DNA from: Acholeplasmataceae bacterium
GTDB lineage: Bacteria; Bacillota_I; Bacilli_A; Acholeplasmatales; Acholeplasmataceae
DNA length: 64,000 nucleotides
NCBI GenBank assembly: GCA_007692425.1
Contig: RECG01000014.1
Location: 9,654 to 73,653, forward strand
Direction of reading: 5' to 3'
A program made the translations under genes and the position numbers. Shown piece by piece: positions 461 through 52,207 of this stretch. Each line of letters opens with the position of its first letter. Within the stretch, counting starts at the first letter, position 1. The notes below the pieces were generated by a model. The model worked only from the letters and a program-made list of their open reading frames with translations. It had not been told where the DNA came from and made no database searches.

Positions 461-1189
461 TCAAACATCGGTCTGCTGATACACTTTGATGGAATCGACC
501 TCCAGCACAAACGGGAAGTCATCATCCACGATCGTACCCCCGAACATCCCACCGACGGCCATGTTGATGATCAGGTAGAACGGTTGGTCGAAAGGCCATT
601 CACGTTCACCGTCACCGTGTTGCCGTTCATAGCGGGCATAGGATTTGCCATCAATTGAAAACACCAGCTGATCTTTCGTCCATTCCATCGCATAGTCATG
701 AAAGGCCGTATCCGCGTCATTGACAAAGGTCTCGGTCGTCCGCTCGGTGTTGGTCCGATGGTTGAAGGCTGCGGTGTGCAGGCTGGCGATGATGCGTCCA
801 GGGTGATTGCCGGCATATTCCATCAGATCGATTTCACCGCACAGCGGCCAACGGATACCGTTGGCATGTCCCTCGCTCAAAAACCAGAAAGCCGGCCAGC
901 TTCCCCTGCCTTTCGGCATCCTGGCACGGATGACGAACCGTCCATATTGCCAATGCAGTCTGCTTCTGGTGTTGATCCGGGCCGAACGGTATTTGCAAGG
1001 TCCTTCCTCATGGAGGGTCGAGATGATGAAAAGCCGGTTGTCGCGAATATGGACATTGGCCGGATCTGCGGTGTAACATTGTTTTTCCTGGTTGGCCCAC
1101 TTGTCACCGACCTCGATATGCCAATGGTCGGAATCCGGCGCGCCGGTGCGTCTGAAATGTTCTTCGAAAACCAATCGATATGCGGACAT
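461..1189 (-). CDS. Glycoside hydrolase family 16 endo-beta-1,3(4)-glucanase (laminarinase-like), no signal peptide, probably cytoplasmic
   Basis: GH16 catalytic strand GEIDLMEY plus the WPAFW motif; length of about 242 aa. Start placed at ATG 1187-1189 (MSAYRL), 6 nt after RBS AAAGGTGG. The listed start at 1264 has no RBS. Confidence 0.85.
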   Translation of the reverse strand: MSAYRLVFEEHFRRTGAPDSDHWHIEVGDKWANQEKQCYTADPANVHIRDNRLFIISTLHEEGPCKYRSARINTRSRLHWQYGRFVIRARMPKGRGSWPAFWFLSEGHANGIRWPLCGEIDLMEYAGNHPGRIIASLHTAAFNHRTNTERTTETFVNDADTAFHDYAMEWTKDQLVFSIDGKSYARYERQHGDGEREWPFDQPFYLIINMAVGGMFGGTIVDDDFPFVLEVDSIKVYQQTDV

Positions 1190-1327
1190 GTTGACCACCT
1201 TTCTTGTCGTCAGAAGGAGTATACAAAACCATTTTACACGATAATGGACGGTCTGGCTAGTCAATTCTCAGGAAAGGTCGTTGACTCGGCTGCCATGTAA
1301 GCGATTTACTTTTTTCAGATAAAAGCC

Positions 1328-1377
1328 TTTACATTTGATGTGAATATGGTTATAATATGTTTAGGAAACCGGTTTCC
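1328..1377 (+). promoter_or_regulatory. Sigma-A-type promoter followed by a perfect 14-bp palindrome (candidate LacI/GalR-type operator)
   Basis: TTTACA (1328-1333), 17-nt spacer, TATAAT (1351-1356). GGAAACCGGTTTCC follows at 1364-1377, just downstream of the -10. The region is divergent between the GH16 gene and the surface-protein gene. Confidence 0.55.
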
Positions 1378-1549
1378 GCATGATGTGGTTTCATAGAAGC
1401 CGGACCTATCATGGATGACAACACAAGATGGCGCTTTTCCTTGAGGAAAAGCATGCGTTGTCATCAGCTGAATTAAAGTTGGACATCAGACAATTTCCGA
1501 CATGGAAATGTCTTTAAAGATAGTGTCAATTAAAAAAGGAGGAAAATAC

Positions 1550-5266: not shown

Positions 5267-5342
5267 TATTATAAATGTGATGGCGCATGGGCATGCTTGT
5301 CCATGCGCCAATCCACACCAAGTTATCAAATAGGAGGAGAAT

Positions 5343-6776
5343 ATGAAAAAATTACTGTTATTCACCACGGTCATTCTCTTTGTCTTCGCCCTGCACGCCT
5401 GTAATGGCCAAAACGGCGGTAATGGCGGACAGCAAGGCATCGAACTGACCTATGCTGACTGGGGCAACCAAGAGTTCAACCAGTTATTGATTGACGCGTT
5501 CATGGAAGAATATCCTGACATCCGCGTGACCTTGCGAGGCGACATTGATGGCGCCGGTGATATCTTCACAGGCAACCTTGTCACTGCCGCACAAGCCGGC
5601 TTGCTCCCTGATGTCTATGCGATCGACAATGTCCCCACGGCCATCAATGCCGGCTTGACATTGGATGTCGCCCCATACTGGGATGCAGACCCGGAAACAG
5701 CCTTGATCTATGAGAACATCGCCAACACGGCGGTCTATCAAGGCCAACGTCTGGCCATGCCGTCTTACCAGTTCTTCAAAGGTATTTATATCAACCTTGA
5801 CATCTTTGACGATGCCAACCTGACCACGACCGATGATTACCGCGTCGATTTGGACGGTTATCCGGTCAAGGACTGGACCTTTGATGAATTCATCGCCATC
5901 ATCAAGGCCGTCACCAACTATACACCTGAGAATCCGGAAACCTTGGTCATTGGCATGGCGAACTGGTTCGGCGCACCTGATTTCCAACAAGTCTGGCCAA
6001 CCATGTTTGATGCCGACGTCCTCTATGACACCTATGACGGCACCGCATTCCACTACACTTCACCGGAATGGATTGATGCCATGACCGAAAAAGTCGACTT
6101 GCACCGTGCCCAGAATGGTTGGACCACCAACCTTTCCTTGGACGATCTGGAAGAGTACGAAGTCTTGAGCCAATTCTTGACGACCGCCGGCTATGTCGCC
6201 CTTGACATCGACGGTTCCTGGATGTTCTGGATGATCAACGAAGCTGTTGAAAATGGTTTCAATCTCGGTTTCTGGCCCTATCCTCAAGGACCGGCCGGCT
6301 TTTTCCCGCCGACCATCCTTGACTACATCTGTGTCTCCAGCCAGACCGACCATCCTGAAGAAGCCTATCTTCTGGCCAAATGGATGACCTGGGGCAGACA
6401 AGGCTGGGAAGCCAGACTAGACATCTACGAGGCTGACAAGGCCGCTGCCTTGGCAGCAGGCGAAGTCCCGACCTGGCTCGACCGTTTTCCGGTTGCCGAC
6501 TATCCGGATGTCTGGGACCGCGTCTTTGACCTGGTCGATGGCATCGAAGGCATTGAATACACGATCGATCACATCGCAAACGCGAAACCAGACCTTGACA
6601 AGTGGCTCCCGGGCTACAAGGATTTCTGGGCATGGGTTTTCGATGGTGAGAATCCCTACAACTGGATGAATCTGGTTGAGGCCGGACCGGCTGCTGTCGG
6701 CACTTACGCCGTGCAGTGGAACAACAGGATCAATGACATTGTCACCCAGGAGAAAGACCGCTTAGGCAACGAATAA
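5343..6776 (+). CDS. ABC transporter (CUT1-type) extracellular sugar-binding lipoprotein
   Basis: RBS AGGAGG. Lipobox FVFALHAC followed by a Gly/Asn/Gln-rich linker. Family-1 SBP length (477 aa). Lies upstream of the permease genes. Confidence 0.85.
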   Translation: MKKLLLFTTVILFVFALHACNGQNGGNGGQQGIELTYADWGNQEFNQLLIDAFMEEYPDIRVTLRGDIDGAGDIFTGNLVTAAQAGLLPDVYAIDNVPTAINAGLTLDVAPYWDADPETALIYENIANTAVYQGQRLAMPSYQFFKGIYINLDIFDDANLTTTDDYRVDLDGYPVKDWTFDEFIAIIKAVTNYTPENPETLVIGMANWFGAPDFQQVWPTMFDADVLYDTYDGTAFHYTSPEWIDAMTEKVDLHRAQNGWTTNLSLDDLEEYEVLSQFLTTAGYVALDIDGSWMFWMINEAVENGFNLGFWPYPQGPAGFFPPTILDYICVSSQTDHPEEAYLLAKWMTWGRQGWEARLDIYEADKAAALAAGEVPTWLDRFPVADYPDVWDRVFDLVDGIEGIEYTIDHIANAKPDLDKWLPGYKDFWAWVFDGENPYNWMNLVEAGPAAVGTYAVQWNNRINDIVTQEKDRLGNE

Positions 6777-6854
6777 GTCAACGTTTACATTTCATGATAT
6801 AATCGGGAGAGAAGGTTCACCTTCTCTCCCGCATCATCATGTCCGGAGGTTCGC

Positions 6855-9800
6855 ATGAAAGCCAAGAGCCACGAATGGGTCGCTTATTTAAAACAACTCA
6901 ATCCCAAAATCATCATCATCACCATCTTGTCGGTGGTCATGGTTTTATTATTGAGTTTGTCGTTTTTACGCAAGTCAAGTGACGATCGTTTTTTCGATGC
7001 GATGCCTTTGGCACACGATTATGAAGACGTACGGCTGACCGCCGTTTACAATGTGCCCCTCTACACCGCCATCTTTGCTGGGTACCGTGAACTTGGACTC
7101 GAACCGGCCGGTGAAGATCATGAGATCAGCACGGCTGACATGACCGGTCAACGCATCGACCGTGATCATCCTGATTTCGGCCATCATGTCGCTGATTATC
7201 TTGATGCACAAGGTTTGCCGATCATGGATGTCTTGCTGGTGGACCGCGACCAGACCGTCTCATTCGTCCATCCCGGCACCACCAACGGCCTTTATTACCT
7301 TGAAATCGATTATCTGGAACTCGACCAGAGCATCGACAACACGCAAATCGCCATCACGATCAACGGTGAAAGTCCGTTTTATGAAAGCCAGACAATCGTC
7401 TTGCCTTCACGCTGGCTCCTGGCCAGCGACACCTTTACTTTGGACCGCTACCAAAACGAAATCCAACCCAATTCGCTCAAGGTCCAAGATTGGTTTTCCC
7501 ATGCGATTCATGACTATAGGGGTATGCATCCCGGTCTGTTCGCGTTTCATTTGAACGAGGGTGACACCATCACCATTTCCCATGTCAACGGTCGTCTCTT
7601 GATCGGTAACATCCGTTATGTCGAGCCACGCACGCTACCGACCTATGCCGAATACCTGGCCGACAAAGGCAGCCATCCCGTCGCATCTGACAAACTCGTG
7701 GTGGCCGCCCGTGACATGCTTTTCCGCAACGATCCTTCGATCCGTCTGCGTCCGGAAATGGATCCCTCGAACCTTTATTATGATACGCAGTTTCTCAGAC
7801 TCAATGTCATCTTCGGAGATTCCTGGCAAAATGCCGGCCAAGCCGTCACCTATGCGGTGGAAGTCACAGAACCAGGTTACTATCAATTGTCCTTCAAATA
7901 TCGTCAGTACATCATGAGGGACATGACGGTCTTCCGCAAGATCAAGGTCAACGGTGAAGTACCGTATGACCTTTTGGAACATGTTGCATTCCCGTATACG
8001 ACCTCATTCATGCACCGCACGTTGAAAGATGCCGATGGCCAGCCGCTTTATGTCTATCTGGAAGCCGGCACTCATGAAATCACGCTCGAGGCGGTCAGCT
8101 ATCCTTACCGGCAGGCCATCGAAACCATCCAATATGTCATGCGTCAGATCCAAAACATGGCGCTCGATGTCAAACGCTATACCAGCGGGGGCACCGATCT
8201 TTACCGCGACTGGGACATTGAAGCCTATTTTCCACAGGCCGCCGGCCAAATCAGGGACTGGGCCGATTTGCTTGATGATTTGCACCAAGCCTTATTGGCG
8301 TTGTCCACGAACAACAACCCTTCCGAGATCAGCCAGTTGAAAGTCGCGTCCGCACGGCTGAGAAACATCGCCTCTGACATCAACCGCCTGCCCAGCCGCA
8401 TGGTCCAGTTTTCCGATGGTGACTCCTCGGTCAACCAGATTCTGGGCAATCTCATGCAAAACCTGTTACGCCCCAATCTCGAACTTGAACGTCTCATCGT
8501 CCATGGCGATGTCAACATCGGCCGCCCCCACGCCAATGTCTTTATCAATTTCTGGGAAGGCCTTAAACGTCTTGTCTTGTCGTTTGTCAACAATCCCTAC
8601 AGCGCATCGGCGCGACGACAGGACAACGAACTGATGGTCTGGGTCAACTACCCCCGTCAATACATCGAAATCATGCAGACCATGATCGACCAGTATTACG
8701 ACGGCACGATGAATGTGACCCTCTCACAAATGCCTGACCAGAACAAGCTCATCCTCGCCAATGCCAGTGGCAGGGCACCGGATGTGGCGATCGGTGTCAA
8801 TCACTGGATTCCTTATGAATTCGCCATCCGGGATGCCTCTTTGGACTTGCGTCAGTTTCCCGGTTATGCCGACCTTGTGAGCAACTTCACACCAGGGGCG
8901 ATCATCCCCTATGTCTTTGAAGAAGGCGTCTATGGCCTGCCCAGCACCCAAAACTTCTGGGTGACTTTTTACCGCCGCGACATTTTAGACAGCATCGGCA
9001 TCCATGACATTCCGCAAACCTGGGACGAAATCATCGAAATCCTGCCGATCCTACAAAGTTACGGCATGAATTATTTCGTCCCGTTGGCCCAGTTTTCCGG
9101 ACTGAAACCATTTGTCGCCACCCTGCCGTTCATTTATCAGTTCGGGGGTGACCTTTATACCGAAGACGGCATGCAGACCGCCATCAACAGCGAACAGACA
9201 CTCAAAGGCATCCGCCTCATGTCCGAACTCTACACGCTTTACAACCTACCTAAATTCGTCGGTAGTTTCTTCAACCATTTCCGCTATGGCATGTTGCCAA
9301 TCGGCATCGGTGACTTATCAACCTATATCCTGCTTCAAACCGCGGCTGTCGAGCTTGACGGTCTTTGGGGCATGGACCTGCATCCCGGTGTCTATCATGA
9401 AGACCTGGATACCATCGTCCGCTATTCCGCCGTCGGTGCCCAAGGCGACATGATTTTGAGTTCGACGCTCCATCCGGACGAGTCATGGCGCTTTCTGTCA
9501 TGGTGGATGTCCACACCAATCCAGTCGGAGTTCGCCTTCCTGCTGCAAAGCACCTACGGCAAGGCTTATTTCTGGAACAGCGCCAACATCGAAGCCTTCA
9601 AGACCGTCTCGATGCCTGACGAATACAAGCAAATCGTCCTGGCTCAGTGGGAGTGGGGCATCGAAGCCTCCCGTATCCCGGGCAACTATATGGTCGAACG
9701 CGAGATCAGCAACGCCTGGACCCGGATTGTCTTTGAAGGTGCCAACCCGAGACAAGCCCTCGATGAGGCGGTGCGCATCTCCAACCGCGAGATCATCTAC

Positions 9801-9908
9801 AAGATGGCCGAGTTCGGTTATGCTTTCCAGGGACAACCCTTGAAACCTTATCCGGTGCCGAGCATCTACAACATCCATGAATGGCTGACGGAGGTGTCCG
9901 ATGATTAG
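6855..9908 (+). CDS. Membrane-anchored 1017-aa fusion: about 550 aa of unknown extracellular region plus a C-terminal family-1 solute-binding-protein-like fold
   Basis: RBS GGAGG. One N-terminal TM helix ([19 protein letters not shown]) and no lipobox. The C-terminal part from about nt 8625 looks like a sugar SBP. Its stop overlaps the start of the next permease gene. Confidence 0.7.
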
Positions 9909-10785
9909 ACACATGAACCGTCCGGCCTGGTTCATCGTTCCTTATTGGTCGTTGTTCGCTCTATTTGTCATCATTCCCGTATTGGCCGCGATTGCCTTGT
10001 CTTTCACGTATTTCAACGCCATTCAGGCACCACGTTTCATCGGGATCACCAATTACATCGAACTGATCACGATGGACACGGTGTTCATGCAGTTCGTCTT
10101 GTCCAATACCTTGCGTTTCGCCCTGATCGTCGGACCTGTCGGTTATTTCCTGGCTTTCATGCTGGCTTGGACCCTGGCCCAGATCTCGGCCAAACCACGC
10201 ATGGTGCTGGCCATCATCCTTTACTCACCGTCGCTGACGCTCGGTGTCGCGATGGCCGCCATGTGGCGCATCATCTTCTCAGATGACTCGCAAGGCTATC
10301 TCAACAGCCTGCTCATCAACTGGGGTGTCATCTTGGAACCGATCGCCTTCCTGCAATCACCGCAATACCTGATGAGCATCATGATCATTGTTTCCTTGTG
10401 GAGCAGCATGGGCGTCGGCTTCCTGGCGATGCTCGCCGGTGTCCTCAATATTGACCAGACCCTTTATGAGGCCGCCTATATGGATGGTATCCGCAACCGC
10501 GCCCAGGAGATATTCTATATCACCATCCCTTCCATGAAACCGCAGATGCTGTTCGGTGCGGTCATGGCGGTGGTGACCACCTTCCAGGCCGGCGGTATCG
10601 GCGTGATGCTCTCAGGCACCAATCCGACCCCGCAATATGCCGGCCAGCTGATCGTCAACCACATCGAAGATTTCGGTTTCATCCGTTACATGATGGGGTA
10701 TGCCGCAGCGGTCAGCGTCGTCCTGCTTTTGATGGTGTACTTCATTTCGAAGGTCACCTGGGGCATTCTTGGAGAAAAGGAGTGA
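9901..10785 (+). CDS. Sugar ABC transporter permease (MalF/LplB-like)
   Basis: Six predicted TM segments. EAA loop [36 protein letters not shown] 5 nt before the ATG. Confidence 0.9.
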
Positions 10786-10786
10786 G

Positions 10787-11671
10787 ATGATGGCCAAATC
10801 CTCGTTCCAAGGTACCAAAATCAATCCGATCCGCTTTCATCGCAGCCAGTTGAAGTTCTATGCCTTCCTGGTGCCTTTTTCGACGTTGATGATCCTGCCG
10901 ATCATCTTCATCATCAACCATGCTTTCAAACCACAAAGCGAACTATTCGCCTTTCCGCCCCGTTTTTTCGTGCGCCAACCGACCTTTGACAACTTTCTTG
11001 AACTGTCACGTATCGCCTCGGCGTCGGGCGTGCCTTTCTCACGTTACATCATCAACAGTTTGTTCGTGACGGGCGCAGGTGTCTTCCTGGCGATTTTCAT
11101 CACCGCTTTTTCCGCTTATGCCTTGTCCAAACTGAAGTTCAAAGGCAAGCGTTTCCTCTTCGAGGTCAACACGCTCGCCCTCATGTTCGTGCCGATCGCG
11201 GTCCAGATTCCGCGTTACCTGATCATCGCCCAGACGGGCATGATCGATTCCTACGTGGCGCACATCCTGCCCATGGTCGTCATGCCAGTCGCGATGTTTT
11301 TGATCAAACAGTTCATCGACCAGACACCCGATGAACTGATTGAATCGGCCAAGATTGACGGCGCTTCGGAAATGGAGATTTTCCTCAAGATCATCTTCCC
11401 GATCGTGCTGCCGGCAATCGCGACGGTCGGCATTCTCGCCTTTCAAGTGTTATGGAATGACGTCACGACGTCCATTCTTTATATTGATGACGAAAGCAAA
11501 CGGACTTTGGCCTTCTACATGATGAGCCTGACGTCCATTCAAGGTAACATCGTGGCCGGCCAGGGGATGGCAGCGGCCGCCGGTCTGATCATGTTCCTGC
11601 CGAACCTGATCCTCTTCATCATCCTGCAAAGCAAGGTCATGAACACCATGGCCCACTCGGGGATCAAATGA
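10787..11671 (+). CDS. Sugar ABC transporter permease (MalG/LplC-like)
   Basis: EAA loop ESAKIDGASEMEIFLKIIFPIVLP. Start moved to ATG 10787, after RBS AAAGGAG. The listed TTG start at 10769 overlaps the previous gene. Confidence 0.9.
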   Translation: MMAKSSFQGTKINPIRFHRSQLKFYAFLVPFSTLMILPIIFIINHAFKPQSELFAFPPRFFVRQPTFDNFLELSRIASASGVPFSRYIINSLFVTGAGVFLAIFITAFSAYALSKLKFKGKRFLFEVNTLALMFVPIAVQIPRYLIIAQTGMIDSYVAHILPMVVMPVAMFLIKQFIDQTPDELIESAKIDGASEMEIFLKIIFPIVLPAIATVGILAFQVLWNDVTTSILYIDDESKRTLAFYMMSLTSIQGNIVAGQGMAAAAGLIMFLPNLILFIILQSKVMNTMAHSGIK

Positions 11672-13713
11672 TGAAGAAGAAGTTGCTGATCCTCCTTTTA
11701 GGTCTCCTGATGCTTGTGGCGTTCGTCCCATCCCCGGACCCACAAGCAAACGGGTTACCCTACAACACGTTCACCTACAGCAGCGCCGCCCGCCGTTTTG
11801 TCTTCACGCAGGATGCCTACCTGCCGCTTTCCATCAGTTATGAGCTGGCAGGCTTGCGTCTCAACAACCCGCAAGACCTGACGATCGATGCGGAAGACAA
11901 CATCTATATCGCTGATTACGGCAACAGCCGCGTCATCAAGTACAGCCTTCAAGATGACGAGGTCTTCATCATCGGCGAAGGCGTCTTGAACCAGCCCAGC
12001 GGTGTCCACGTCGGACGGGACGGCCATCTTTATGTCGCCGATTTCGGCAACAAGGCCGGTTATCAGTTCCTCTATGACCGAGACACCAGGACCTACAGTC
12101 TCGGTGCCACTTATGAAAGACCGGTCGGCACGCCGTTCTTCCAACCAGGTGACGCCTTCGATCCGACCAAGATCGTCACCGACATGGGCAATAATGTCTA
12201 CCTGCTGCTCGCCGGCAACATCAACGGCATGGCCGAGTATGAGAACAACGGCAGCTTTTTCGGCTTTTTCGGCGGCAACCGCCTGCCGAACACCTGGGAC
12301 AACGTCCTGCGTTTCATCCTCTTCGATGAAACACAGCGACGCAACTGGTTCCAGATGATTCCCAAACCGGTCTATAACGTCGCCGTCGACCGCGACGGCC
12401 TGATCCTGACGACGACCAAGGGTGACATGGGCTATGTCAAGCTCAACATCGCCAATTTCGTCTACAGCAGTTCCGTCTGGGGACACACCAATGTCGAAGA
12501 CATCTTCGTCGGCCCCTACAACACCATCTTCACCGTTTCCGAAAACGGGTTCATCACCGAATATGGTCCGGACGGATCGGTCCTCTTTGTCTTCTCCGGA
12601 CCCGATCGCTTCAACCAGAAGGGCCTGTTCAAGGCGCCGACCGGCATTGCCGTCGACTCAAAAAACAACCTTTATGTCGTCGACCGCACGACCAACGCCC
12701 TGCAGGTTTTCATTCCGACCGAATTTGCCAACCTGGTCCATTACGCCATCAGCCTGTATCAGGACGGCCGATATATAGAGTCGCTTGAACCCTGGCAGGA
12801 AGTGCTCAAGATGAACAGTTTGTTCGATCTGGCCAACAAAGGCATCGCTGATGCCTATTTCGCACAAATGGAATATGATCTGGCGATGGCCTATTATGAA
12901 GTGGCCAGGGACACCGACGGTTACTCCAACGCCTTCTGGGAAGTCAGGAACACCTTCCTGCTAGGTAGCGGGGCCTTCCTCGTCATCCTTATGATCAGCA
13001 TGGTCGTGCTCTTTGCCGTCAACCGTCTGACCCATTTCATGGTCCATGTTAAAAAACCGGTGGCCCGCTTGAAAACTTGGCTCGGTCAATACAAACTTTA
13101 TCAGGAACTGGTTTTCCCCTTTTACATCTTCAGACAACCGGCCGATGGCTACTACGGCATCAAACGTGAGCAGAAGGGCTCCAATCTGTCGGCGACAATC
13201 TACCTGCTCTTGTTTTTCAGCATGTACATCCTGTTCATTTACCGGACGAGTTTCCTCTTCAACCCATACATTCCAAGTGAAATCAACATGTTCCAGCAGA
13301 TCATCACCGTCTTTTTGCCTTTCTTCCTCTTCGTCATCGCCAATTACCTGGTGTGCAGCATCCGTGACGGCGAAGGTAGGCTCAGGGATGTTTATCAGGC
13401 TTCGGCCTACACCTTGCTGCCGTTGATCATCACCTTGCCGTTGGTGACATTGGTCTCGAACGGCCTGACCTATAATGAAGCCTTCATCTACCATACCATC
13501 CTCTTTGTCGGCATCTTCGTCACCGTGCTTTATTTTGTCATCATGATCAAGGAAATTCATTTCTACGACATGAAGCCGACCCTCTACAACCTCTTCATCA
13601 CCTTGTTCACCGCCCTCATGATCCTGGCGGTCGTCTTCATCGTCTACTTGTTGTTAAATGAGGTTGTCACCCTCTTTTCAGACATCATCAGGGAGGTGGT
13701 CAGTCGTGGTTAA
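11668..13713 (+). CDS. Secreted six-bladed NHL-repeat beta-propeller and TPR-like segment fused to a C-terminal multi-TM Yip1-like domain
   Basis: Signal peptide MMKKKLLILLLGLLMLVAF. Six NHL-like blades (for example DNIYIADYGNSRVIKY, GHLYVADFGN, NNLYVVDRTTNALQVF). A helical pair YFAQMEYDLAMAYYEVA. About 6 TM helices follow. ATGA overlap with the upstream permease gene. Confidence 0.7.
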   Translation: MMKKKLLILLLGLLMLVAFVPSPDPQANGLPYNTFTYSSAARRFVFTQDAYLPLSISYELAGLRLNNPQDLTIDAEDNIYIADYGNSRVIKYSLQDDEVFIIGEGVLNQPSGVHVGRDGHLYVADFGNKAGYQFLYDRDTRTYSLGATYERPVGTPFFQPGDAFDPTKIVTDMGNNVYLLLAGNINGMAEYENNGSFFGFFGGNRLPNTWDNVLRFILFDETQRRNWFQMIPKPVYNVAVDRDGLILTTTKGDMGYVKLNIANFVYSSSVWGHTNVEDIFVGPYNTIFTVSENGFITEYGPDGSVLFVFSGPDRFNQKGLFKAPTGIAVDSKNNLYVVDRTTNALQVFIPTEFANLVHYAISLYQDGRYIESLEPWQEVLKMNSLFDLANKGIADAYFAQMEYDLAMAYYEVARDTDGYSNAFWEVRNTFLLGSGAFLVILMISMVVLFAVNRLTHFMVHVKKPVARLKTWLGQYKLYQELVFPFYIFRQPADGYYGIKREQKGSNLSATIYLLLFFSMYILFIYRTSFLFNPYIPSEINMFQQIITVFLPFFLFVIANYLVCSIRDGEGRLRDVYQASAYTLLPLIITLPLVTLVSNGLTYNEAFIYHTILFVGIFVTVLYFVIMIKEIHFYDMKPTLYNLFITLFTALMILAVVFIVYLLLNEVVTLFSDIIREVVSRG

Positions 13714-16096
13714 ACTCATGCGTTACATGGTCGTTTTCGCCCTCTTTTTCATGCTGATCAGTGTCATCACCTATGGTCGCGGTCACCACCATGCCGGCGA
13801 CATCGACGACATCATCCAAAACTATCCTTACATCAACCAGATGCTTCTGGAAAGTTCACGTTATACCCAGACCGATGACGTCGATCCGGCCCGGATGGAC
13901 GCCTATCTGGACACTTATCGTCTTAAATGGGACGATGACCAGCTCGAAACGATGGGCTTTCTTCCCATGATCGAAAACGACACACTCAAAGTCTGGTTTG
14001 AAAAGGATTCATTCTCGCTGATTGTCCATAACAAGACGACAGACTATTTCTGGTCTTCAAGACCGGAGTTCCAAGGAATCAGCGGCACCCAGGAAGCCAA
14101 CCAAGCCACCCGCCGGTTGATGAATTCCGGTCTTTGGGTCGAATATGTCAGGGCCGCCAATGTCTCTTCGAGCACAATCACGACGGCATCGCTTTATACG
14201 ATCGCCGATGTCCAGTTCCAAAACGACGGATCGATCACCATCGAACATGATGATCCGATCCGGCCCTACCAGATCCAAGACGGATCTTACAACACCAACC
14301 GGGCCGAGACAACCATCACCGGACAAACGGGGACGGGCTTCAGCGTCGATGTCAACCTCAAGCAGATCAATGTCCGCTTCACGGTCACCATCGCCCTCGT
14401 TGACAACCAGATCGAGGTCTTCATCCCACAGGAAAGCATCCTTGAGACCGGCGACATCTTCCGCCTGATCGGCATCCAGGTCTTCCCCTATTTCGGGGCG
14501 GCCCGCGAAGACAAAATCCCGGGCTATATCGTCATCCCTGACGGTCTTGGCGCCCTGGTCCGCATGCATCACCCCTGGAATACGAGTTTCCAAGCCCGCT
14601 TTTACGGTCCGGATGCCGGCTATGCCACGACCACCCTGCCCAGGTTATCGGTACCAATCTACGGCATGGTCCACCAAGCCGGCGCTGATGCCTTTTACGT
14701 CCATGTCGCCGAAGGCGCCGAGACAAGCCAGCTGCGTGCCACCTTCTGGGGTACGAGCACCCGCTATCACCGCATCACCGCCCGTTACAGCGTGCGCCAG
14801 ATCTACCGGAGCGTCATCAACCGGGCCGGTGAAGGCCGCGAGGCTGTCAGACCGGATCTGACAGCCAGCGATTATCGTCTGATTTTCAATATCCTTGACG
14901 GTGACCAGGCCCATTATGTCGGCATGGCCACCGATTACCGTGACCGTCTGATCGAACAAGGCATCCTGACCAGTCGTGAGAAAAACAGCCAGGACGGCAT
15001 CCCCCTGCATCTGAGTTACATCATGAGCGACCGCGAACCCTCCTTCATCGGTACCGCCAAGGTTGTCATGACGACCACCGACGATGTCATGCACAGTTAC
15101 CAATCCTTCCGCGAGGCAGGCATCCTCAACCAGCAGGTCAACCTATACGGCTGGAGCAACGACGGGTTTTTCAATCGCGCACCCTACCGCTTCCGCATCA
15201 GCGGCAAAAGCGGCTTTGACGACATGACCGATCTGATCACGGCCGACGGCAACACCCTTTATCTGCATAATGATTATGTCGTCTCGAGTGAACTGTCATC
15301 ACGGGTGTCTTATAACCGGGATGTCGCCCGCAATCTCTCGCGTCTCAAGATGACCATGACCAGGCGGTTGTTGAACGACCGCACGGTCGAACTCTACTTT
15401 GTCACCCCTGAAAGCAGCGACCGTCTGGCCGCTGCCGACCTGCGGCACCTCGAGGGTCTCGGTGTCTCAGGACTGATGATGACGGATTTGGGCAATACCT
15501 TGTTCAGCCATTTTGACGGCGGCTTGTATGAACGCAGTGACGCCATTGGTTATTATCAAGACATCGCCGCCCGCTATGACCATCTTTTGCTGGACATGCC
15601 CAACGATTACCTGTTCGCCTATATCGACGGCTATACCGCCTTGCCGATCACGAACAGCCAATACGATTACTACACCGACCTGATTCCGCTTTTGCCCATC
15701 ATCCTGAAGGGCAGCGTCTCCTATTACACGCCTTATCTCAATTTCAACGCCCTGGCCGAAGACCGCTTGCTGACAATGGTCGATTTCGCCGTCAACCCGA
15801 GCTATGTGCTGACCGAACAACCGACCTATGAAATGCGGTTCACGATGGCCAACCGTTTCTACACGACGACAAGAAGCGATTATGAAGCGGAGATCATTGA
15901 GGTCTATCATTATCTCAACGACGCCCTCAGCCATGTCATGGACGCCTACATTGTCCATCGTCAGGTCATCGAGACCGGCCTGGTCGCCGTGACCTATTCA
16001 AACGATGTCGTCATCTACGTCAATTACAGTTATCAGTCGAAGACGGCGGACGGTCATCTGATCGCGGCCCGCGACTACAAGGTGGTGACGCCATGA
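13706..16096 (+). CDS. N-terminally anchored extracellular protein of about 800 aa, DUF5696-like (uncharacterised; glycosidase-like size)
   Basis: The long ORF has one N-terminal TM helix (YMVVFALFFMLISVITY). A GTG at 13706 lies 6 nt after GGAGGTGG; the alternative ATG is at 13718. Blocks such as GYIVIPDGLGALVRM and YGWSNDGFF recall the DUF5696 family from memory only. Confidence 0.55.
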   Translation: MVKLMRYMVVFALFFMLISVITYGRGHHHAGDIDDIIQNYPYINQMLLESSRYTQTDDVDPARMDAYLDTYRLKWDDDQLETMGFLPMIENDTLKVWFEKDSFSLIVHNKTTDYFWSSRPEFQGISGTQEANQATRRLMNSGLWVEYVRAANVSSSTITTASLYTIADVQFQNDGSITIEHDDPIRPYQIQDGSYNTNRAETTITGQTGTGFSVDVNLKQINVRFTVTIALVDNQIEVFIPQESILETGDIFRLIGIQVFPYFGAAREDKIPGYIVIPDGLGALVRMHHPWNTSFQARFYGPDAGYATTTLPRLSVPIYGMVHQAGADAFYVHVAEGAETSQLRATFWGTSTRYHRITARYSVRQIYRSVINRAGEGREAVRPDLTASDYRLIFNILDGDQAHYVGMATDYRDRLIEQGILTSREKNSQDGIPLHLSYIMSDREPSFIGTAKVVMTTTDDVMHSYQSFREAGILNQQVNLYGWSNDGFFNRAPYRFRISGKSGFDDMTDLITADGNTLYLHNDYVVSSELSSRVSYNRDVARNLSRLKMTMTRRLLNDRTVELYFVTPESSDRLAAADLRHLEGLGVSGLMMTDLGNTLFSHFDGGLYERSDAIGYYQDIAARYDHLLLDMPNDYLFAYIDGYTALPITNSQYDYYTDLIPLLPIILKGSVSYYTPYLNFNALAEDRLLTMVDFAVNPSYVLTEQPTYEMRFTMANRFYTTTRSDYEAEIIEVYHYLNDALSHVMDAYIVHRQVIETGLVAVTYSNDVVIYVNYSYQSKTADGHLIAARDYKVVTP

Positions 16097-17169
16097 AGAA
16101 CGTGCTGAACCATGTCAAAGGCTTTTTCGCCGGCATCAAGAACGGATTTGTCCGTGCCTGGCGTGCCGCCGCTGATTATCATTACCACAAGATTTCCCCT
16201 TCTTACGATAAAATCAAACATGCCTTGAAGAACAATGTCATCGTCCGTATCGAGGGACAGCAATTGACCTTGTTCAGCTTCTTAAACATCACCATCACCC
16301 GGCGTCGGCGTGAAGGCTTTTATGGCTATGTCTTCATCTTGCTTTGGCTGCTTGGTTTCCTGGTCTTCACCCTTTATCCGATGTTTTATTCGCTTTACCT
16401 GAGTTTCAATCATGCCTATTATTCGGCTCAGACGGGCGTCGTTTCGACCTTCATCGGTTTTGAAAACTATTTGTCCATCTTCAGAAGCCAGGTGCTTTTA
16501 CCTTTATTCGCCACCTATCTGGGCAAGATGGTCCTGTCGGTGCCGCTCATCATCGTCTTCTCGATTTTGATTGCTGTCCTGATCAACAACCCCATCAAAC
16601 TCAAAGGCTTCTGGCGGACTGTCTTTTTCCTGCCGGTCGTCATCGCCACCGGTCCGGTCATCGGCGAACTGGCCAACCAGGATGCCACCTCACTACCTGC
16701 CCTGCAAGATTCGGAAGTCTTGCTCTTCATCACCGAAAATCTTGGTGATTGGCTGGCCAATCCGTTGGAAATCATCTTGACATCAATGCTCTTGATCCTC
16801 TGGTATGCCGGCATTCCGATTTTGATTTTTTTGGCCGGTCTGCAAAAAATCGATACCGCCATTTATGAGGCGGCCTCGATCGATGGTGCATCGCCCTGGG
16901 ACCGTTTTTGGAAAATCACGCTGCCGTCGATCAAGCCGCTCATCAGCGTCGCCATCATTTATGTCGTCGTCACCATGTCGCTCTTTGTCGAACCGGGCGG
17001 CATCCTTGACCTGGCCAGGATCCACATGCTGGTCGGCGCACCGGATTCAGCCTTTTTCCACGGCTACGGCTACGCTGCCGCGATTGCTTGGATCTATTTC
17101 ATCCTGATGGTGATCCTGATGGTCATCTTTGTCGGTATGATGTCGATCAGAAGGAGGGAAGAGGCATGA
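16093..17169 (+). CDS. Sugar ABC transporter permease (MalF-like) with an N-terminal extension of about 70 aa
   Basis: EAA loop YEAASIDGASPWDRFWKITLPSIKP. ATGA overlap with the upstream gene. Confidence 0.9.
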   Translation: MKNVLNHVKGFFAGIKNGFVRAWRAAADYHYHKISPSYDKIKHALKNNVIVRIEGQQLTLFSFLNITITRRRREGFYGYVFILLWLLGFLVFTLYPMFYSLYLSFNHAYYSAQTGVVSTFIGFENYLSIFRSQVLLPLFATYLGKMVLSVPLIIVFSILIAVLINNPIKLKGFWRTVFFLPVVIATGPVIGELANQDATSLPALQDSEVLLFITENLGDWLANPLEIILTSMLLILWYAGIPILIFLAGLQKIDTAIYEAASIDGASPWDRFWKITLPSIKPLISVAIIYVVVTMSLFVEPGGILDLARIHMLVGAPDSAFFHGYGYAAAIAWIYFILMVILMVIFVGMMSIRRREEA

Positions 17170-18095
17170 AACAAGACAAAACCGTGTTGAAACAAAAAAT
17201 CCGCCGAATCTTCCTTGGCATGAATGTCGTCGACGGCTTGATCTACAAAGTGATCATTTATACGCTGTTGATCAGTTTCAGCTACATCTATCTCTATCCG
17301 ATCTTGTTCATGGTCGTCAACAGCCTGATGACGGTCGATGATCTGATCAATCCCGGCATCAAATGGGTACCCACAGCGCTTGAGTTTTCGAACTACCAAC
17401 GGGCCACCCAGGTGCTGAAGTTCCCGGATTCGGTTTTCGAGACCACGTCTTACGTGCTCAAGGTCAGCATCGCCGCGACCTTGTCTTCAGCCATCATCGG
17501 TTTCGGCTTCGCCCGCTTCAACTTCCCGCTTAAGAACATCCTCTTCGCCTTGATGCTCGCGACCTTCATCCTGCCTTCGCAGGTGACGATGGTCGCCAAC
17601 ATGCTCATCTTCAGCAACCTCGGACTGATGAGCACGCAACGGGCCATGATCTTGCCGGCCATTTTCGGCCAAGGGGTCAACGCCGCCATCTTCATTCTGA
17701 TTTTTTACCAGTTTTTCAAAACCATTCCCCAAGTCTTGATGGAATCGGCCGAAATCGACGGCGCCTCACCTTTCAAGGTCTTCACCCGCATCGCTGTACC
17801 GTTGGCCGTGCCGTCGTTCATCATCGTCTTTTTGTTCAGTTTTGTCTGGTATTGGAACGAGACCTTCATCACCGGCCTCTATGTTGGTGGTCGAATCACG
17901 ATGCCTTTGAAACTAGGGGCTTTCAGAGACAGTTATATCACACTGTTTCCACCGGGTTCACCGGGTTCGGAACTCAATGAAGCCATCTTGCTTGCTGGCA
18001 ACATGATCACGATCCTGCCGTTGTTGTTGTTATACTTCGTGGCCCAGCGCTACTTTGTCGAAAGCATCGACCGGACCGGCATCACCGGCGAATAG
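17166..18095 (+). CDS. Sugar ABC transporter permease (MalG-like)
   Basis: EAA loop ESAEIDGASPFKVFTRIAVPLAVP. Start at ATG 17166 (ATGA overlap, RBS GAAGGAGGG). The listed start at 17088 lies inside the previous gene. Confidence 0.9.
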   Translation: MKQDKTVLKQKIRRIFLGMNVVDGLIYKVIIYTLLISFSYIYLYPILFMVVNSLMTVDDLINPGIKWVPTALEFSNYQRATQVLKFPDSVFETTSYVLKVSIAATLSSAIIGFGFARFNFPLKNILFALMLATFILPSQVTMVANMLIFSNLGLMSTQRAMILPAIFGQGVNAAIFILIFYQFFKTIPQVLMESAEIDGASPFKVFTRIAVPLAVPSFIIVFLFSFVWYWNETFITGLYVGGRITMPLKLGAFRDSYITLFPPGSPGSELNEAILLAGNMITILPLLLLYFVAQRYFVESIDRTGITGE

Positions 18096-18109
18096 AAAAG
18101 GAGCACACC

Positions 18110-19240
18110 ATGAAAAAATTACTTTTAATGTTCATCATCTTGTCCTTGCCGGTGCTGGCATCATGCCAACAGGGCGTTCCCAACGGTTTGTTGCCGTTGT
18201 CACCGGTCGAAGATTGCGCGGTCGGCACGCTGGAAGGCGGCTGGGTCTGCATCTGGGCTGATGAGTTTGACGGCGACGAGATCGACAGTGAAAAATGGAA
18301 CTTCCAGACCGGTGGCGGTGGCTGGGGCAACAATGAGCTGCAATATTACCGTCCTGAGAATGCCACTGTCTCAGATGGACGCTTGATCATCACCGCTAAA
18401 AAAGAAAGTCATATGGGCAGACAATACACCTCGGCCCGGATGACCACCAAATACCGTGGTGACTGGCAATACATGCGCATCCAGGTCAGTGCCAAGATGC
18501 CAGGCGGACGTGGCACCTGGCCGGCCATCTGGATGATGCCGACCATGAATGTCTATGGTGGATGGCCCAACAGCGGTGAGATTGACATCTTAGAATATGT
18601 CGGTTACGACCCTGACAAGATTCACACCGCCATCCACACCCAGAAGTTCAATCACAAGATCGGCACGCATCTCTTCTATACGAAGACATTGGCCGATGTC
18701 GAGACGACCTTTCATGTCTATGAGATGATCTGGTCGCCGGGCCGGTTGGAAATGCGCGTCAATGATGAACTGTTTGGCGTGTTCGCCTATACCCCCGTGT
18801 TCAACCAGGAAGTCCCTTATCACGCCGCGTTCCCCTTTGATCAACTCTTTTATCTGATATTGAATGTGGCCATCGGTGGCGACTGGGGCGGAAGAGAAGG
18901 CGTCGATGACAACATGTTTCCGACATCCATGGAAGTCGAATATGTCCGTGTCTACCAACTTGATTACGCGACTTTGGACAAGGAAACCCCGTCGACACCC
19001 GCCAACATCCAACTCGCCCAACTGCCCAACACCTTGTTCTGGACACCATCAACCGATGATGTCGGCGTTGAAAAATATGCTATATATGTGGACGGTGATT
19101 TCCGTCAATATGCCAGTTTGAACCAGGCACGCTTGATCGGTTTGAATGTCGGTCAGACCTATTCAATCCAGATCCAGGCGGTTGATTTTGTCGGTCGCCG
19201 CTCGGGCAAGAGCGACAGTTTCCTGCTCACCATTGTCTGA
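18110..19240 (+). CDS. Secreted lipoprotein GH16 endo-beta-1,3-glucanase with a C-terminal FN3-like domain
   Basis: Lipobox LPVLASC. GH16 motifs WPAIWMM and GEIDILEY. The C-terminal ~90 aa (PSTPANIQL..YAIYVDG..YSIQIQAVD) resemble FN3. Confidence 0.85.
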   Translation: MKKLLLMFIILSLPVLASCQQGVPNGLLPLSPVEDCAVGTLEGGWVCIWADEFDGDEIDSEKWNFQTGGGGWGNNELQYYRPENATVSDGRLIITAKKESHMGRQYTSARMTTKYRGDWQYMRIQVSAKMPGGRGTWPAIWMMPTMNVYGGWPNSGEIDILEYVGYDPDKIHTAIHTQKFNHKIGTHLFYTKTLADVETTFHVYEMIWSPGRLEMRVNDELFGVFAYTPVFNQEVPYHAAFPFDQLFYLILNVAIGGDWGGREGVDDNMFPTSMEVEYVRVYQLDYATLDKETPSTPANIQLAQLPNTLFWTPSTDDVGVEKYAIYVDGDFRQYASLNQARLIGLNVGQTYSIQIQAVDFVGRRSGKSDSFLLTIV

Positions 19241-19263
19241 CCACCAAGTTCATCACGTCTTAA

Positions 19264-19290
19264 GAGCGGCTGATTCTCAGCCGCTTTTTC
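19264..19290 (+). terminator. Rho-independent terminator ending the glucan locus
   Basis: GCGGCTGA-ttc-TCAGCCGC followed by TTTTT. Confidence 0.75.
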
Positions 19291-19356
19291 ATGAGTATCA
19301 AGCATGTTAAAACGGGAAAGAATATGATATACTTTAACGTGTGAGAAGGGAAGCCC

Positions 19357-20097: not shown

Positions 20098-20140
20098 TTT
20101 CACATGATGTTGACACCATTAAGACAAGGAAGACCTCCCC

Positions 20141-31116: not shown

Positions 31117-31267
31117 TCGATAAAATCTTGACGCCATGCCATAAGCATGGTATCATTTTTTTAAGAAAGCAATACCGTTTGACATGATCCCTGGGACCAT
31201 GCTTTTGATATTGACCGCACGGGGGACTCATCTGAATCAAACCAAAAAGAGAAATGGAGACACGTTC

Positions 31268-52186: not shown

Positions 52187-52207
52187 ATTGTTTCGAAGGA
52201 GAAAATC

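What the first reader, a model, noticed from the sequence alone, without database searches (positions are those of the whole stretch)
6855..18095. Best candidate for an undescribed system: a giant anchored SBP fusion, an NHL/TPR/Yip1 protein and a DUF5696-like protein wired into a double ABC importer operon
Seen in sequence:
- The genes from 6855 to 18095 run on one strand with start/stop overlaps at 9901/9908, 11668/11671, 16093/16096 and 17166/17169. They therefore form one translationally coupled unit.
- It contains two complete MalF/MalG-type permease pairs with four EAA loops.
- Between the two pairs sit two large non-transporter proteins. One is a signal-peptide, six-bladed NHL propeller, TPR-like, multi-TM Yip1-like fusion (681 aa). 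The other is an N-terminally anchored protein of about 800 aa that I can only relate, from memory, to the uncharacterised DUF5696 family.
- The operon opens with a 1017-aa binding-protein fusion anchored by a TM helix rather than a lipobox.

Established knowledge: canonical CUT1 importers consist of an SBP, two permeases and an ATPase, and need no such partners. One Yip1-family protein, B. subtilis YknW, is a membrane partner of the ABC transporter YknXYZ.

Inference: the three proteins form a surface and membrane accessory machine that feeds a polymeric glycan to two importers. The propeller would handle capture or scaffolding, the DUF5696-like protein processing, and the giant SBP delivery. 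I know of no characterised example.
Basis: partly seen in the sequence, partly recalled or inferred. Interest (0 to 1): 0.8.

Follow-up and report, generated by a model that had tools for sequence, protein, structure and literature searches.

The report
Conserved eight-gene beta-glucan import module
This stretch encodes a sugar-uptake operon in which two ABC importers are always accompanied by the same three unusual membrane-anchored proteins; the eight genes keep the same order in all 160 related loci examined across distant bacterial groups, and no paper in the searched library describes it.

Summary
Genes from 6855 to 18095 lie on one strand with junction gaps of -8, +1, -4, +4, -4 and -4 nt. 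They encode:
- a TM-anchored 1017-aa SBP fusion;
- two MalF/MalG-type permease pairs;
- a 681-aa NHL-TPR-Yip1 protein;
- a true DUF5696 protein (Pfam E=9.5e-134).

The real unit also includes an upstream 477-aa lipoprotein SBP, so it has two SBPs and two translocators.

In 160 of 160 related loci the order sbp, giant SBP, F, G, NHL-TPR-Yip1, DUF5696, F, G is invariant wherever the contig allows. These loci come from Acholeplasmataceae, Izemoplasmatales, Bacillaceae, Paenibacillaceae, Haloplasmataceae, Chloroflexota and diverse metagenomes, with DUF5696 identity down to 26%.

DUF5696 is a remote GH129 homolog by fold (E=3e-25) and by profile (E=4e-7). The GH129 catalytic-Asp position is not conserved in it. 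The giant SBP carries two CBM35-like beta-sandwiches and a helical stalk.

Flanking enzymes are laminarinases (beta-1,3-glucan) here, and GH144, GH94 and GH35-SGT (beta-1,2-glucan) in Bacilli and Chloroflexota.

No paper in the library mentions DUF5696. I read it as an undescribed but widespread beta-glucan capture-and-import module: a new variant of CUT1 importers and Gram-positive PULs. That the proteins form a physical complex, and what each accessory protein does, remain inference.

The parts
1328..1356 (+). Best sigma-70-like promoter match (TTTACA-17-TATAAT, 11/12), upstream of the locus
   Evidence: This is a consensus match only, and the total number of sites is not above the shuffle expectation.
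461..1264 (-). GH16 glycoside hydrolase, divergently oriented (locus periphery)
   Evidence: Pfam Glyco_hydro_16, E=1e-22.
1502..5266 (+). 1254-aa surface protein with 5 CBM_4_9 domains, an Ig-like domain and a C-terminal fasciclin domain; a candidate polymer-binding surface protein
   Evidence: Pfam. A cysteine follows the N-terminal hydrophobic stretch (FIVAC). A homolog occupies the same position in Mollicutes-type loci.
5281..5310 (+). Intergenic 13-bp stem-loop without a T-run
   Evidence: Fold energy -28.4 kcal/mol, z=-5.4.
5343..6776 (+). Module gene 1: 477-aa lipoprotein, a family-1 solute-binding protein not detected by Pfam
   Evidence: LHAC lipobox. PDB 22hh 'Extracellular solute-binding protein family 1', E=2e-18. 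An SBP-like ortholog precedes the giant SBP in nearly every locus long enough to include that position.
6804..6831 (+). Intergenic 12-bp stem-loop without a T-run, between the two SBP genes
   Evidence: Fold energy -24.2 kcal/mol, z=-4.0.
6855..9908 (+). Module gene 2: 1017-aa TM-anchored SBP fusion. TM helix 19-37; two CBM35/22/6-like beta-sandwiches (~125-256 and ~280-414); helical bundle 416-540; family-1 SBP domain 543-1017
   Evidence: Pfam SBP_bac_1 at residues 630-887. AF2 model with pLDDT 72, about 90 for the N-terminal domains. Foldseek: 9xf5 and 7bvt for the SBP part; 2vzp, 2w1w and 4xup (CBM35/CBM22) for the sandwiches. PDB sequence hits 9xf5 and Lin1841 5ysb.
9901..10785 (+). Module gene 3: MalF-type permease 1, the most conserved component
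   Evidence: BPD_transp_1 at 23 bits, below the cut-off. EAA loop visible. 61-88% median identity across groups.
10787..11671 (+). Module gene 4: MalG-type permease 2
   Evidence: BPD_transp_1, E=1.6e-12; similar to UgpE, GlcU and MalG.
11668..13713 (+). Module gene 5: signal peptide, NHL beta-propeller (~28-350), TPR (~360-425) and a Yip1 polytopic membrane domain (~430-681)
   Evidence: Pfam NHL, TPR_16 and Yip1. Matches to Pizza and PknD NHL propellers and to consensus TPR. Loop 452-506 has K+R 10 against D+E 3, so it is cytoplasmic and the propeller and TPR lie outside.
13718..16096 (+). Module gene 6: TM-anchored DUF5696 protein with N-terminal beta-sandwich, (beta/alpha)8-like barrel and C-terminal beta-sandwich; a remote GH129 homolog
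   Evidence: Pfam PF18952, E=9.5e-134. AF2 model with pLDDT 74. Foldseek: GH129 5opq E=3.4e-25, then GH101, GH36 and GH31. Profile against PDB sequences: 8rzk E=4.3e-7.
16093..17169 (+). Module gene 7: MalF-type permease 3, with an N-terminal extension of about 75 aa
   Evidence: BPD_transp_1, E=4.3e-7; sequence.
17166..18095 (+). Module gene 8: MalG-type permease 4
   Evidence: BPD_transp_1, E=3.4e-15.
18110..19240 (+). GH16 lipoprotein, a laminarinase-type endo-beta-1,3-glucanase with a C-terminal extension
   Evidence: Pfam GH16. PDB 3iln laminarinase, E=7.9e-73. LASC lipobox. Follows the module in Mollicutes-type loci and many metagenome loci.
19262..19288 (+). Terminator-like hairpin with a U-run; probable end of the transcription unit
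   Evidence: Fold energy -18.3 kcal/mol, z=-4.1; sequence.

Best explanation
This is an eight-gene, co-translated beta-glucan capture-and-import module embedded in a Gram-positive-type polysaccharide utilisation locus.

Shown:
- It has two complete CUT1-type translocators (F1G1 and F2G2) and two family-1 SBPs. One SBP is an ordinary lipoprotein. The other is TM-tethered and carries two CBM-like beta-sandwiches on a helical stalk.
- It has a TM-tethered extracytoplasmic GH129-like protein (DUF5696).
- It has a polytopic Yip1 membrane protein that displays an NHL propeller and TPRs outside the cell.
- All eight genes keep an invariant order in 160 loci.

Inferred mechanism:
1. Surface CBM4_9 protein and GH16 lipoprotein laminarinases bind and nick beta-1,3-glucan outside the cell.
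2. The tethered CBM-SBP captures long oligosaccharides close to the membrane and hands them to the strongly conserved F1G1 translocator.
3. DUF5696 trims, debranches or holds the chain at the membrane surface.
4. The shorter products go through the lipoprotein SBP and F2G2.
5. The NHL-TPR-Yip1 protein acts as the membrane scaffold holding the two translocators and the tethered proteins together.
6. ATP hydrolysis is supplied in trans by a shared MsmX/UgpC-type ATPase encoded elsewhere.

In other lineages the same chassis is coupled to beta-1,2-glucan enzymes.
For: - Junction gaps of -8, +1, -4, +4, -4 and -4 nt.
- Invariant gene order in 80 species-representative genomes and in 80 metagenome loci of the most divergent DUF5696 subgroup.
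- Domain calls.
- DUF5696 fold and profile homology to GH129. Its N-terminal anchor or signal is near-universal in the family.
- CBM35/22-like sandwiches and an oligosaccharide-SBP fold in the giant SBP.
- The 477-aa protein is an SBP.
- Flanks are laminarinase and CBM4_9 in this window. In Bacilli and Chloroflexota they are GH144, IaSGT-like GH35, GH94, GH3 and LacI, the published beta-1,2-glucan cluster signature (PMC8861115).
- Graded conservation: F1G1 is highest and DUF5696 lowest. That fits a conserved core with a specificity-bearing periphery.
- Positive-inside analysis puts the NHL and TPR regions outside.
- No ATPase lies inside any module.
Against: - There is no direct evidence of physical association, of which SBP pairs with which permease pair, or of any enzymatic activity.
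- The GH129 catalytic-Asp-equivalent position is acidic in only 183 of 281 DUF5696 proteins, and in 6 of 33 in this window's own clade. DUF5696 may therefore be non-catalytic or use other residues (conserved D275, D/E438, D654, D/E689).
- GH129, GH101, GH36 and GH31 are alpha-glycosidase families, whereas the flanking genes point to beta-glucans.
- Both AF2 models are of moderate confidence (pLDDT 72-74). The SBP lobe at residues 650-860 is poorly modelled.
- The 160 loci were picked through sequence motifs and ranked by similarity, so remoter DUF5696 members (3,569 clusters at 50% identity) were not sampled.
Confidence: 0.6

Rival explanations
1. These are two ordinary, independent CUT1 sugar importers that share an operon with unrelated surface proteins. 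There is no functional or physical coupling, and the accessory genes are passengers of a polysaccharide utilisation locus.
For: Each translocator has its own SBP and EAA loops and could work alone. Gram-positive PULs often mix transporters and surface enzymes.
Against: The order of all eight genes is invariant in 160 of 160 loci, across phyla and down to 26% DUF5696 identity, while the flanking enzymes change completely. Start and stop codons overlap. DUF5696 was never seen outside the module in the samples.
Confidence: 0.12
2. Same module, but DUF5696 is a non-catalytic pseudo-glycosidase. It would act as a glycan-binding platform, chaperone or lid, and all cleavage would be done by the flanking GH16 or GH144 enzymes.
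For: The position aligned with the catalytic Asp486 of ZgGH129 lacks an acidic residue in 27 of 33 Acholeplasmataceae-clade proteins and in about a third of the family. DUF5696 is the fastest-evolving component. Its structural relatives are alpha-glycosidases, whereas the context is beta-glucan.
Against: Four acidic positions and the PGY..IPDG.GAL.R motif are 96-100% conserved across 281 diverse sequences, as expected for an active site. The alignment around the GH129 Asp is of low confidence and could be shifted; the window protein has D590 one residue away.
Confidence: 0.2
3. The module is mainly a sensing or envelope-maintenance device rather than a nutrient importer. For example, it could recycle the cell's own surface or periplasmic glucan, or sense glucan through the PknD-like propeller.
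For: The propeller's nearest natural solved relative is the extracellular sensor domain of the kinase PknD. Beta-1,2-glucans are bacterial products (PMC8861115). No regulator is adjacent in this window.
Against: BPD_transp_1 permeases with SBPs are importers (established knowledge of type I ABC importers). The flanks are catabolic: secreted laminarinases, GH94 phosphorylase, GH3 and LacI. There is no kinase, HTH or other output domain in the NHL-TPR-Yip1 protein. Wall-less Mollicutes carry the module too.
Confidence: 0.08

Closest known systems
CUT1-family (MalEFGK2-type) ABC oligosaccharide importers, e.g. the Listeria innocua sophoro-oligosaccharide system with SBP Lin1841, and importers of cyclic oligosaccharides (SBPs 9xf5, 7bvt)
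   Same: MalF/MalG-type permeases with EAA loops and family-1 SBPs. The giant SBP's C-terminal domain matches 9xf5, Lin1841 (5ysb) and 7bvt. As in many Bacillota, the ATPase is not in the operon.
   Different: There are two translocators and two SBPs in one fixed unit. One SBP is TM-anchored and extended by about 500 residues (two CBM-like sandwiches and a helical stalk). Three obligatory extra membrane-anchored proteins are present. Canonical systems need none of these.
Glycoside hydrolase family 129 (Bifidobacterium bifidum NagBb alpha-N-acetylgalactosaminidase; Zobellia galactanivorans 3,6-anhydro-D-galactosidase), with related GH101
   Same: The same three-domain architecture. Best Foldseek matches have E=3e-25 and TM 0.55/0.65. 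Profile-level sequence homology has E=4e-7.
   Different: About 10% identity. The catalytic-Asp position is not conserved. DUF5696 is TM-anchored and always encoded inside an ABC importer operon. The context is beta-glucan rather than alpha-linked substrates.
Bacillus YknWXYZ, in which the Yip1-family membrane protein YknW partners an ABC transporter
   Same: A bacterial Yip1-domain membrane protein encoded with, and acting with, an ABC transporter (PMC4887032).
   Different: YknYZ is a MacB-type exporter with a membrane-fusion protein, working in toxin resistance. YknW has no propeller or TPR ectodomain. Here the partners are type I importers.
Mycobacterium tuberculosis PknD extracellular NHL beta-propeller sensor domain
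   Same: A six-bladed NHL propeller displayed outside the membrane; sequence match 1rwi E=4.7e-16 and derived Pizza designs E=1e-42.
   Different: PknD links the propeller through one TM helix to a cytoplasmic kinase. Here it is fused through TPRs to a polytopic Yip1 domain with no signalling output.
Bacteroidota SusCD 'utilisome' and Gram-positive PULs (functional analogues)
   Same: Co-encoded surface glycan-binding proteins, surface endo-glycanase and a dedicated transporter. The substrate-specific enzymes swap around a conserved transport core.
   Different: No outer membrane and no TonB-dependent transporter. The core is a double ABC importer with Yip1-propeller and GH129-like partners. 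This analogy is an inference from my own knowledge and was not tested.

Membership tests
CUT1-type ABC carbohydrate importer (type I, MalFGK2-like) | Two BPD_transp_1 membrane subunits (MalF-like and MalG-like), each with an EAA loop | tested here: met
   Four permeases forming two F/G pairs. EAA-x-x-DG motifs are visible in all four translations. Perm1 scores 23 bits, below the 26.4-bit cut-off.
CUT1-type ABC carbohydrate importer (type I, MalFGK2-like) | Extracytoplasmic family-1 solute-binding protein | tested here: met
   SBP_bac_1 in the 1017-aa protein. The 477-aa lipoprotein matches PDB 22hh at E=2e-18.
CUT1-type ABC carbohydrate importer (type I, MalFGK2-like) | Cognate MalK/MsmX-type ATPase | tested here: not met
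   No such gene in the operon or in the 64-kb window; the only ABC ATPases are an OpuA-type and an ABC-F. None lies inside any of the 160 modules. It is presumably supplied in trans, as for MsmX in Bacillota (my own knowledge).
Pfam DUF5696 (PF18952) | Score above the gathering threshold over the full model | tested here: met
   447.6 bits against a 25.6-bit cut-off; model positions 8-612 of 612.
Glycoside hydrolase family 129 | Three-domain fold: N-terminal beta-sandwich, (beta/alpha)8 barrel, C-terminal beta-sandwich | tested here: met
   AF2 model. Foldseek top hits 5opq, 8rzk and 5wzn, E=1e-19 to 3e-25.
Glycoside hydrolase family 129 | Detectable sequence homology to family members | tested here: met
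   The 129-sequence profile hits 8rzk at E=4.3e-7, 5opq at 1.4e-6 and NagBb at 5e-5. A single sequence finds nothing. This is remote homology, not family-level similarity.
Glycoside hydrolase family 129 | Conserved catalytic Asp (Asp486 in ZgGH129) and its partner acid | tested here: inconclusive
   The aligned position (~589-593) is acidic in 183 of 281 proteins, and in 6 of 33 in this clade. The window protein has D590.
Glycoside hydrolase family 129 | Glycosidase activity | not testable with these tools
   Needs an enzyme assay.
Yip1 domain family (PF04893) | Pfam score above threshold, and a polytopic membrane domain | tested here: met
   34.2 bits against a 28.6-bit cut-off at residues 486-655. 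About 6 hydrophobic segments at 433-662.
NHL-repeat six-bladed beta-propeller | Multiple NHL repeats sufficient for a closed propeller | tested here: met
   Pfam NHL E=1.7e-20 with 3 stretches. Six matched stretches against Pizza7H, and a match to the PknD sensor 1rwi. The blade count was not confirmed by a structure model.
Gram-positive polysaccharide utilisation locus | Co-localised transporter, glycoside hydrolase(s) and a regulator | tested here: inconclusive
   Transporter and GH16 enzymes are present. No regulator gene is adjacent in this window. LacI or a response regulator lies nearby in L001 and L079.

The most novel reading that the evidence does not exclude
The eight proteins assemble into one membrane supercomplex, a 'utilisome' for bacteria that lack an outer membrane (Gram-positive and wall-less). 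A Yip1-propeller scaffold would join two ABC translocators to a tethered CBM-SBP and a GH129-like enzyme. This would allow processive, 'selfish' capture, trimming and import of long beta-glucan chains, with DUF5696 founding a new glycoside hydrolase family.
Probability: 0.3. Interest if true: 0.85.

Novelty: new variant of a known kind. Interest (0 to 1): 0.7.

Why it matters
ABC sugar importers are thought to need only an SBP, two permeases and an ATPase. Here a fixed set of three additional membrane-anchored proteins and a second translocator has been kept together across Mollicutes, Bacilli, Chloroflexota and many uncultured lineages. That implies an obligatory and so far unstudied mode of glycan uptake.

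It would also provide:
- a function and context for the large DUF5696 family (at least 3,569 clusters at 50% identity), as a candidate new glycoside hydrolase family related to GH129;
- a first role for prokaryotic Yip1-propeller fusions;
- an explanation of how bacteria that are wall-less or lack an outer membrane harvest laminarin and beta-1,2-glucans, which matters for marine carbon turnover and for gut and digester ecology.

Several carriers are cultivated, so the hypotheses can be tested directly.

Tried and rejected
- The single-sequence PDB search with DUF5696 found nothing. Only profiles reached GH129.
- NCBIfam has no model for the giant SBP, DUF5696 or the 477-aa SBP.
The narrower A3 worked.
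- Literature searches for DUF5696, PF18952, and Yip1 combined with ABC, SBP, permease, NHL or glycoside hydrolase returned nothing relevant.
- The Paenibacillus JDR-2 beta-glucan regulon turned out to be a plain three-gene ABC cassette, not this module.
- PMC5898192 discusses archaeal Yip1 cassettes with small membrane proteins, which are unrelated in context.
- PMC12102758, on the new beta-1,2-glucanase families, contains none of the five terms searched in it, including 'ABC transporter' and 'DUF'.
- I looked for an ABC ATPase inside the modules and found none.
- I could not map the 3D clustering of the conserved DUF5696 acids, because the tools do not return model coordinates.
- I rejected 'chance adjacency of two importers' because the gene order is invariant in 160 of 160 loci.
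- The promoter and terminator consensus scan was not above the shuffle expectation overall. It missed the hairpin after GH16, which I found by eye and confirmed by folding.

Full report
**1. The observation**

With the most plausible start codons, the junction gaps from the 1017-aa protein to the last permease are -8, +1, -4, +4, -4 and -4 nt. A further 14 nt leads to a GH16 gene.

- SBP_bac_1 covers only residues 630-887 of the 1017-aa protein.
- BPD_transp_1 is found in four permeases.
- NHL (E=1.7e-20), weak TPR_16 and Yip1 (34.2 bits, cut-off 28.6) are found in the 681-aa protein.
- DUF5696/PF18952 is found at E=9.5e-134 in the roughly 800-aa protein.

EAA loops can be read in all four permeases. 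The giant SBP and DUF5696 each have one N-terminal TM helix and no lipobox.

Two corrections are needed. First, the 477-aa lipoprotein just upstream (5343-6776) has no Pfam hit but is a family-1 SBP (PDB 22hh, E=2e-18). The unit therefore has two SBPs for two permease pairs. Second, no ABC ATPase of the MalK/MsmX type is encoded in the operon or anywhere in the window.

**2. Locus boundaries and organism**

Upstream on the same strand lies a 1254-aa surface protein with five CBM_4_9 domains and a fasciclin domain. A GH16 gene lies on the opposite strand.

The best promoter-like site (11/12) is at 1328-1356. Strong hairpins without T-runs sit in the two 76-78-nt gaps after the CBM gene and after the first SBP gene. 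A hairpin with a U-run follows GH16 at 19262-19288. The likely transcription unit is therefore about 1.4-19.3 kb, with the tightly coupled core at 6855-18095.

The closest homologs are from Acholeplasmataceae and 'Tenericutes'. The rest of the window holds housekeeping genes.

**3. Conservation of the module**

Mariniplasma anaerobium, and a Bacillota MAG with only 43% DUF5696 identity, show the same gene order.

I scanned one genome per species (185,579 species) with a DUF5696 alignment and kept 80 loci with 10-kb flanks. I annotated them with HMMs built iteratively from each domain of the window's proteins.

Wherever the contig is long enough, every locus has this order: sbp (~480 aa), CBM-stalk-SBP (~1000), MalF-type, MalG-type, NHL-TPR-Yip1 (~677), DUF5696 (~780), MalF-type, MalG-type. 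The loci include Izemoplasmatales, Bacillus, Pseudalkalibacillus, Paenibacillus, Cohnella, Lederbergia, Haloplasmataceae and Chloroflexota, with DUF5696 identity down to 26%.

I then scanned metagenome contigs with the most divergent DUF5696 subgroup. All 80 of those loci show the same order. No ATPase gene lies inside any module.

The exhaustive HMMER search counts 3,569 DUF5696 clusters at 50% identity. Nearly all of the listed representatives examined have an N-terminal anchor or signal peptide.

Conservation is graded. Median identities to the window protein, across four groups of increasing distance, are:
- first permease pair: 88 down to 61% and 82 down to 55%;
- SBP domain and TPR: about 77 down to 40%;
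- Yip1, NHL and the second permease pair: about 70 down to 31-39%;
- DUF5696: 54 down to 27%.

**4. What the accessory proteins are**

*DUF5696.* An AF2 model (pLDDT 74, pTM 0.71) shows an N-terminal beta-sandwich, an alpha/beta barrel and a C-terminal beta-sandwich. Foldseek against the PDB ranks GH129 first (5opq, E=3.4e-25, TM 0.55/0.65; NagBb 5wzn), followed by GH101, GH36 and GH31.

A 129-sequence profile also finds GH129 by sequence alone: 8rzk E=4.3e-7, 5opq E=1.4e-6, NagBb E=5e-5. DUF5696 is therefore a remote GH129 homolog.

The alignment reaches the residue mutated in the ZgGH129 D486N complex. The corresponding DUF5696 position (~589-593) is acidic in 183 of 281 family members, but in only 6 of 33 in the Acholeplasmataceae clade. 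The window protein has D590.

Four other acidic positions (D275, D/E438, D654, D/E689) and the PGY..IPDG.GAL.R motif are 96-100% conserved. Catalysis is therefore plausible but unproven, and its residues may differ from those of GH129.

*Giant SBP.* The AF2 model (pLDDT 72) shows a TM helix, two confident beta-sandwiches (about 125-256 and 280-414), a helical bundle (416-540) and the SBP fold. The sandwiches resemble CBM35, CBM22 and CBM6-type modules (2vzp, 2w1w, 4xup). The SBP lobe best matches binding proteins for cycloisomalto-oligosaccharides and cyclic maltosyl-maltose, and by sequence also the sophoro-oligosaccharide binder Lin1841.

*NHL-TPR-Yip1.* Six blade-like stretches match PknD-derived propellers, and residues 362-424 match consensus TPRs. 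Charge distribution puts the propeller and TPRs outside the cell and the 452-506 loop inside.

**5. Substrate context**

The window's GH16 is a laminarinase homolog (3iln, E=8e-73). GH16 genes follow the module in the Mollicutes-type loci and in many of the metagenome loci.

In Bacillaceae, Paenibacillaceae and Chloroflexota loci there is no GH16. Instead the flanks hold:
- a GH144 endo-beta-1,2-glucanase homolog (5gzh, E=7e-45);
- a homolog of the GH35 beta-1,2-glucosyltransferase IaSGT (7vkw, E=1e-108);
- GH94, GH3 and LacI genes.

That combination is the published signature of beta-1,2-glucan clusters (PMC8861115). The module is therefore a conserved chassis used with different beta-glucans.

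**6. Mechanism**

Shown: a co-translated, invariant eight-gene set encoding two importers plus three extracytoplasmic, membrane-tethered proteins whose folds relate to carbohydrate handling.

Inferred:
- Surface enzymes nick the polymer.
- The tethered CBM-SBP captures long chains for the highly conserved first translocator.
- DUF5696 trims or holds them.
- The lipoprotein SBP and the second translocator take shorter products.
- The Yip1-propeller protein scaffolds the assembly.
- An MsmX-type ATPase acts in trans.

I give this overall reading about 0.6. The sub-variant in which DUF5696 is non-catalytic gets 0.2, independent importers 0.12, and a sensing or recycling role 0.08.

**7. Comparison with known systems, and novelty**

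The transport core passes the CUT1 membership tests, except for the missing ATPase gene. DUF5696 passes the GH129 tests for fold and remote homology, but the catalytic-residue test is inconclusive, so I do not file it as GH129.

The only characterised bacterial Yip1 partner of an ABC transporter that I found is YknW, which works with a MacB-type exporter (PMC4887032). That is a different kind of system.

No paper in the library mentions DUF5696 or PF18952, and none describes this combination. NCBIfam has no model for the three accessory proteins.

I classify the finding as a new variant of a known kind: an ABC-importer-based glycan utilisation system with an unprecedented and strictly conserved set of accessories.

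**8. Verdict**

Conserved co-occurrence and carbohydrate-related folds are shown. Complex formation and the role of each protein are not. Interest 0.7.

Noticed in passing
window 1-64000: The window has 51% GC (module 53%), whereas the related Acholeplasmataceae-type loci have a median of 34.5% (range 28-52%). The organism appears to be an unusually GC-rich member of the lineage.
   Followed up: partly
window 1-64000: GC skew is negative in almost every 2-kb bin, and the cumulative skew falls steadily to -2.04, although nearly all long genes are on the + strand. The coding strand is therefore C-rich throughout.
   Followed up: no
window 9901-10785: Permease 1 scores below Pfam's gathering threshold (23 against 26.4 bits), yet it is the most conserved protein of the module (61-88% identity across all groups). 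It is an atypical MalF-like subunit under strong constraint.
   Followed up: partly
window 5281-5310 and 6804-6831: Strong 12-13-bp hairpins without T-runs lie in the two ~77-nt intergenic gaps, after the CBM surface-protein gene and after the first SBP gene. They may be mRNA-stability or attenuation elements that set the SBP-to-permease expression ratio.
   Followed up: partly
L132:~16000-22331: A second copy of the module (sbp, giant SBP, permease) starts directly after the first one and its GH16 gene. This is a tandem paralogous module in a termite-gut-type metagenome contig.
   Followed up: no
L160 and L161 (module region): The DUF5696 proteins here are about 1000-1050 aa and the NHL-TPR-Yip1 proteins 730-814 aa, so some lineages add extra domains.
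   Followed up: no
L058:14038-19721, L067:82-1203: In Bacillaceae and Paenibacillaceae loci the module is also flanked by a GFO/IDH/MocA oxidoreductase, a xylose-isomerase-like TIM-barrel protein (AP_endonuc_2) and a DUF624 membrane protein. From my own knowledge, this set is reminiscent of 3-keto-glycoside pathways.
   Followed up: no
window 31184-33439 and 52100-53407: Two long ORFs (751 aa and 435 aa) have no Pfam hit at E<=1e-5.
   Followed up: no
window 27442-31116: A galactose (Leloir) gene set lies here: galactokinase, aldose 1-epimerase and galactose-1-phosphate uridylyltransferase. The listed galT ORF (from 29323) overlaps the epimerase gene, and its Pfam match starts at residue 166, so the true start is probably later.
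   Followed up: no
DUF5696 residues ~585-595 (window 15470-15502) and orthologs: The motif at the GH129 catalytic-Asp-equivalent position differs by clade. It is GLSMSNLG (no acid) in most Acholeplasmataceae, and VLFESLG or SIEDTG (acidic) in Izemoplasma and Bacilli types. This may mark a functional split within the family.
   Followed up: partly
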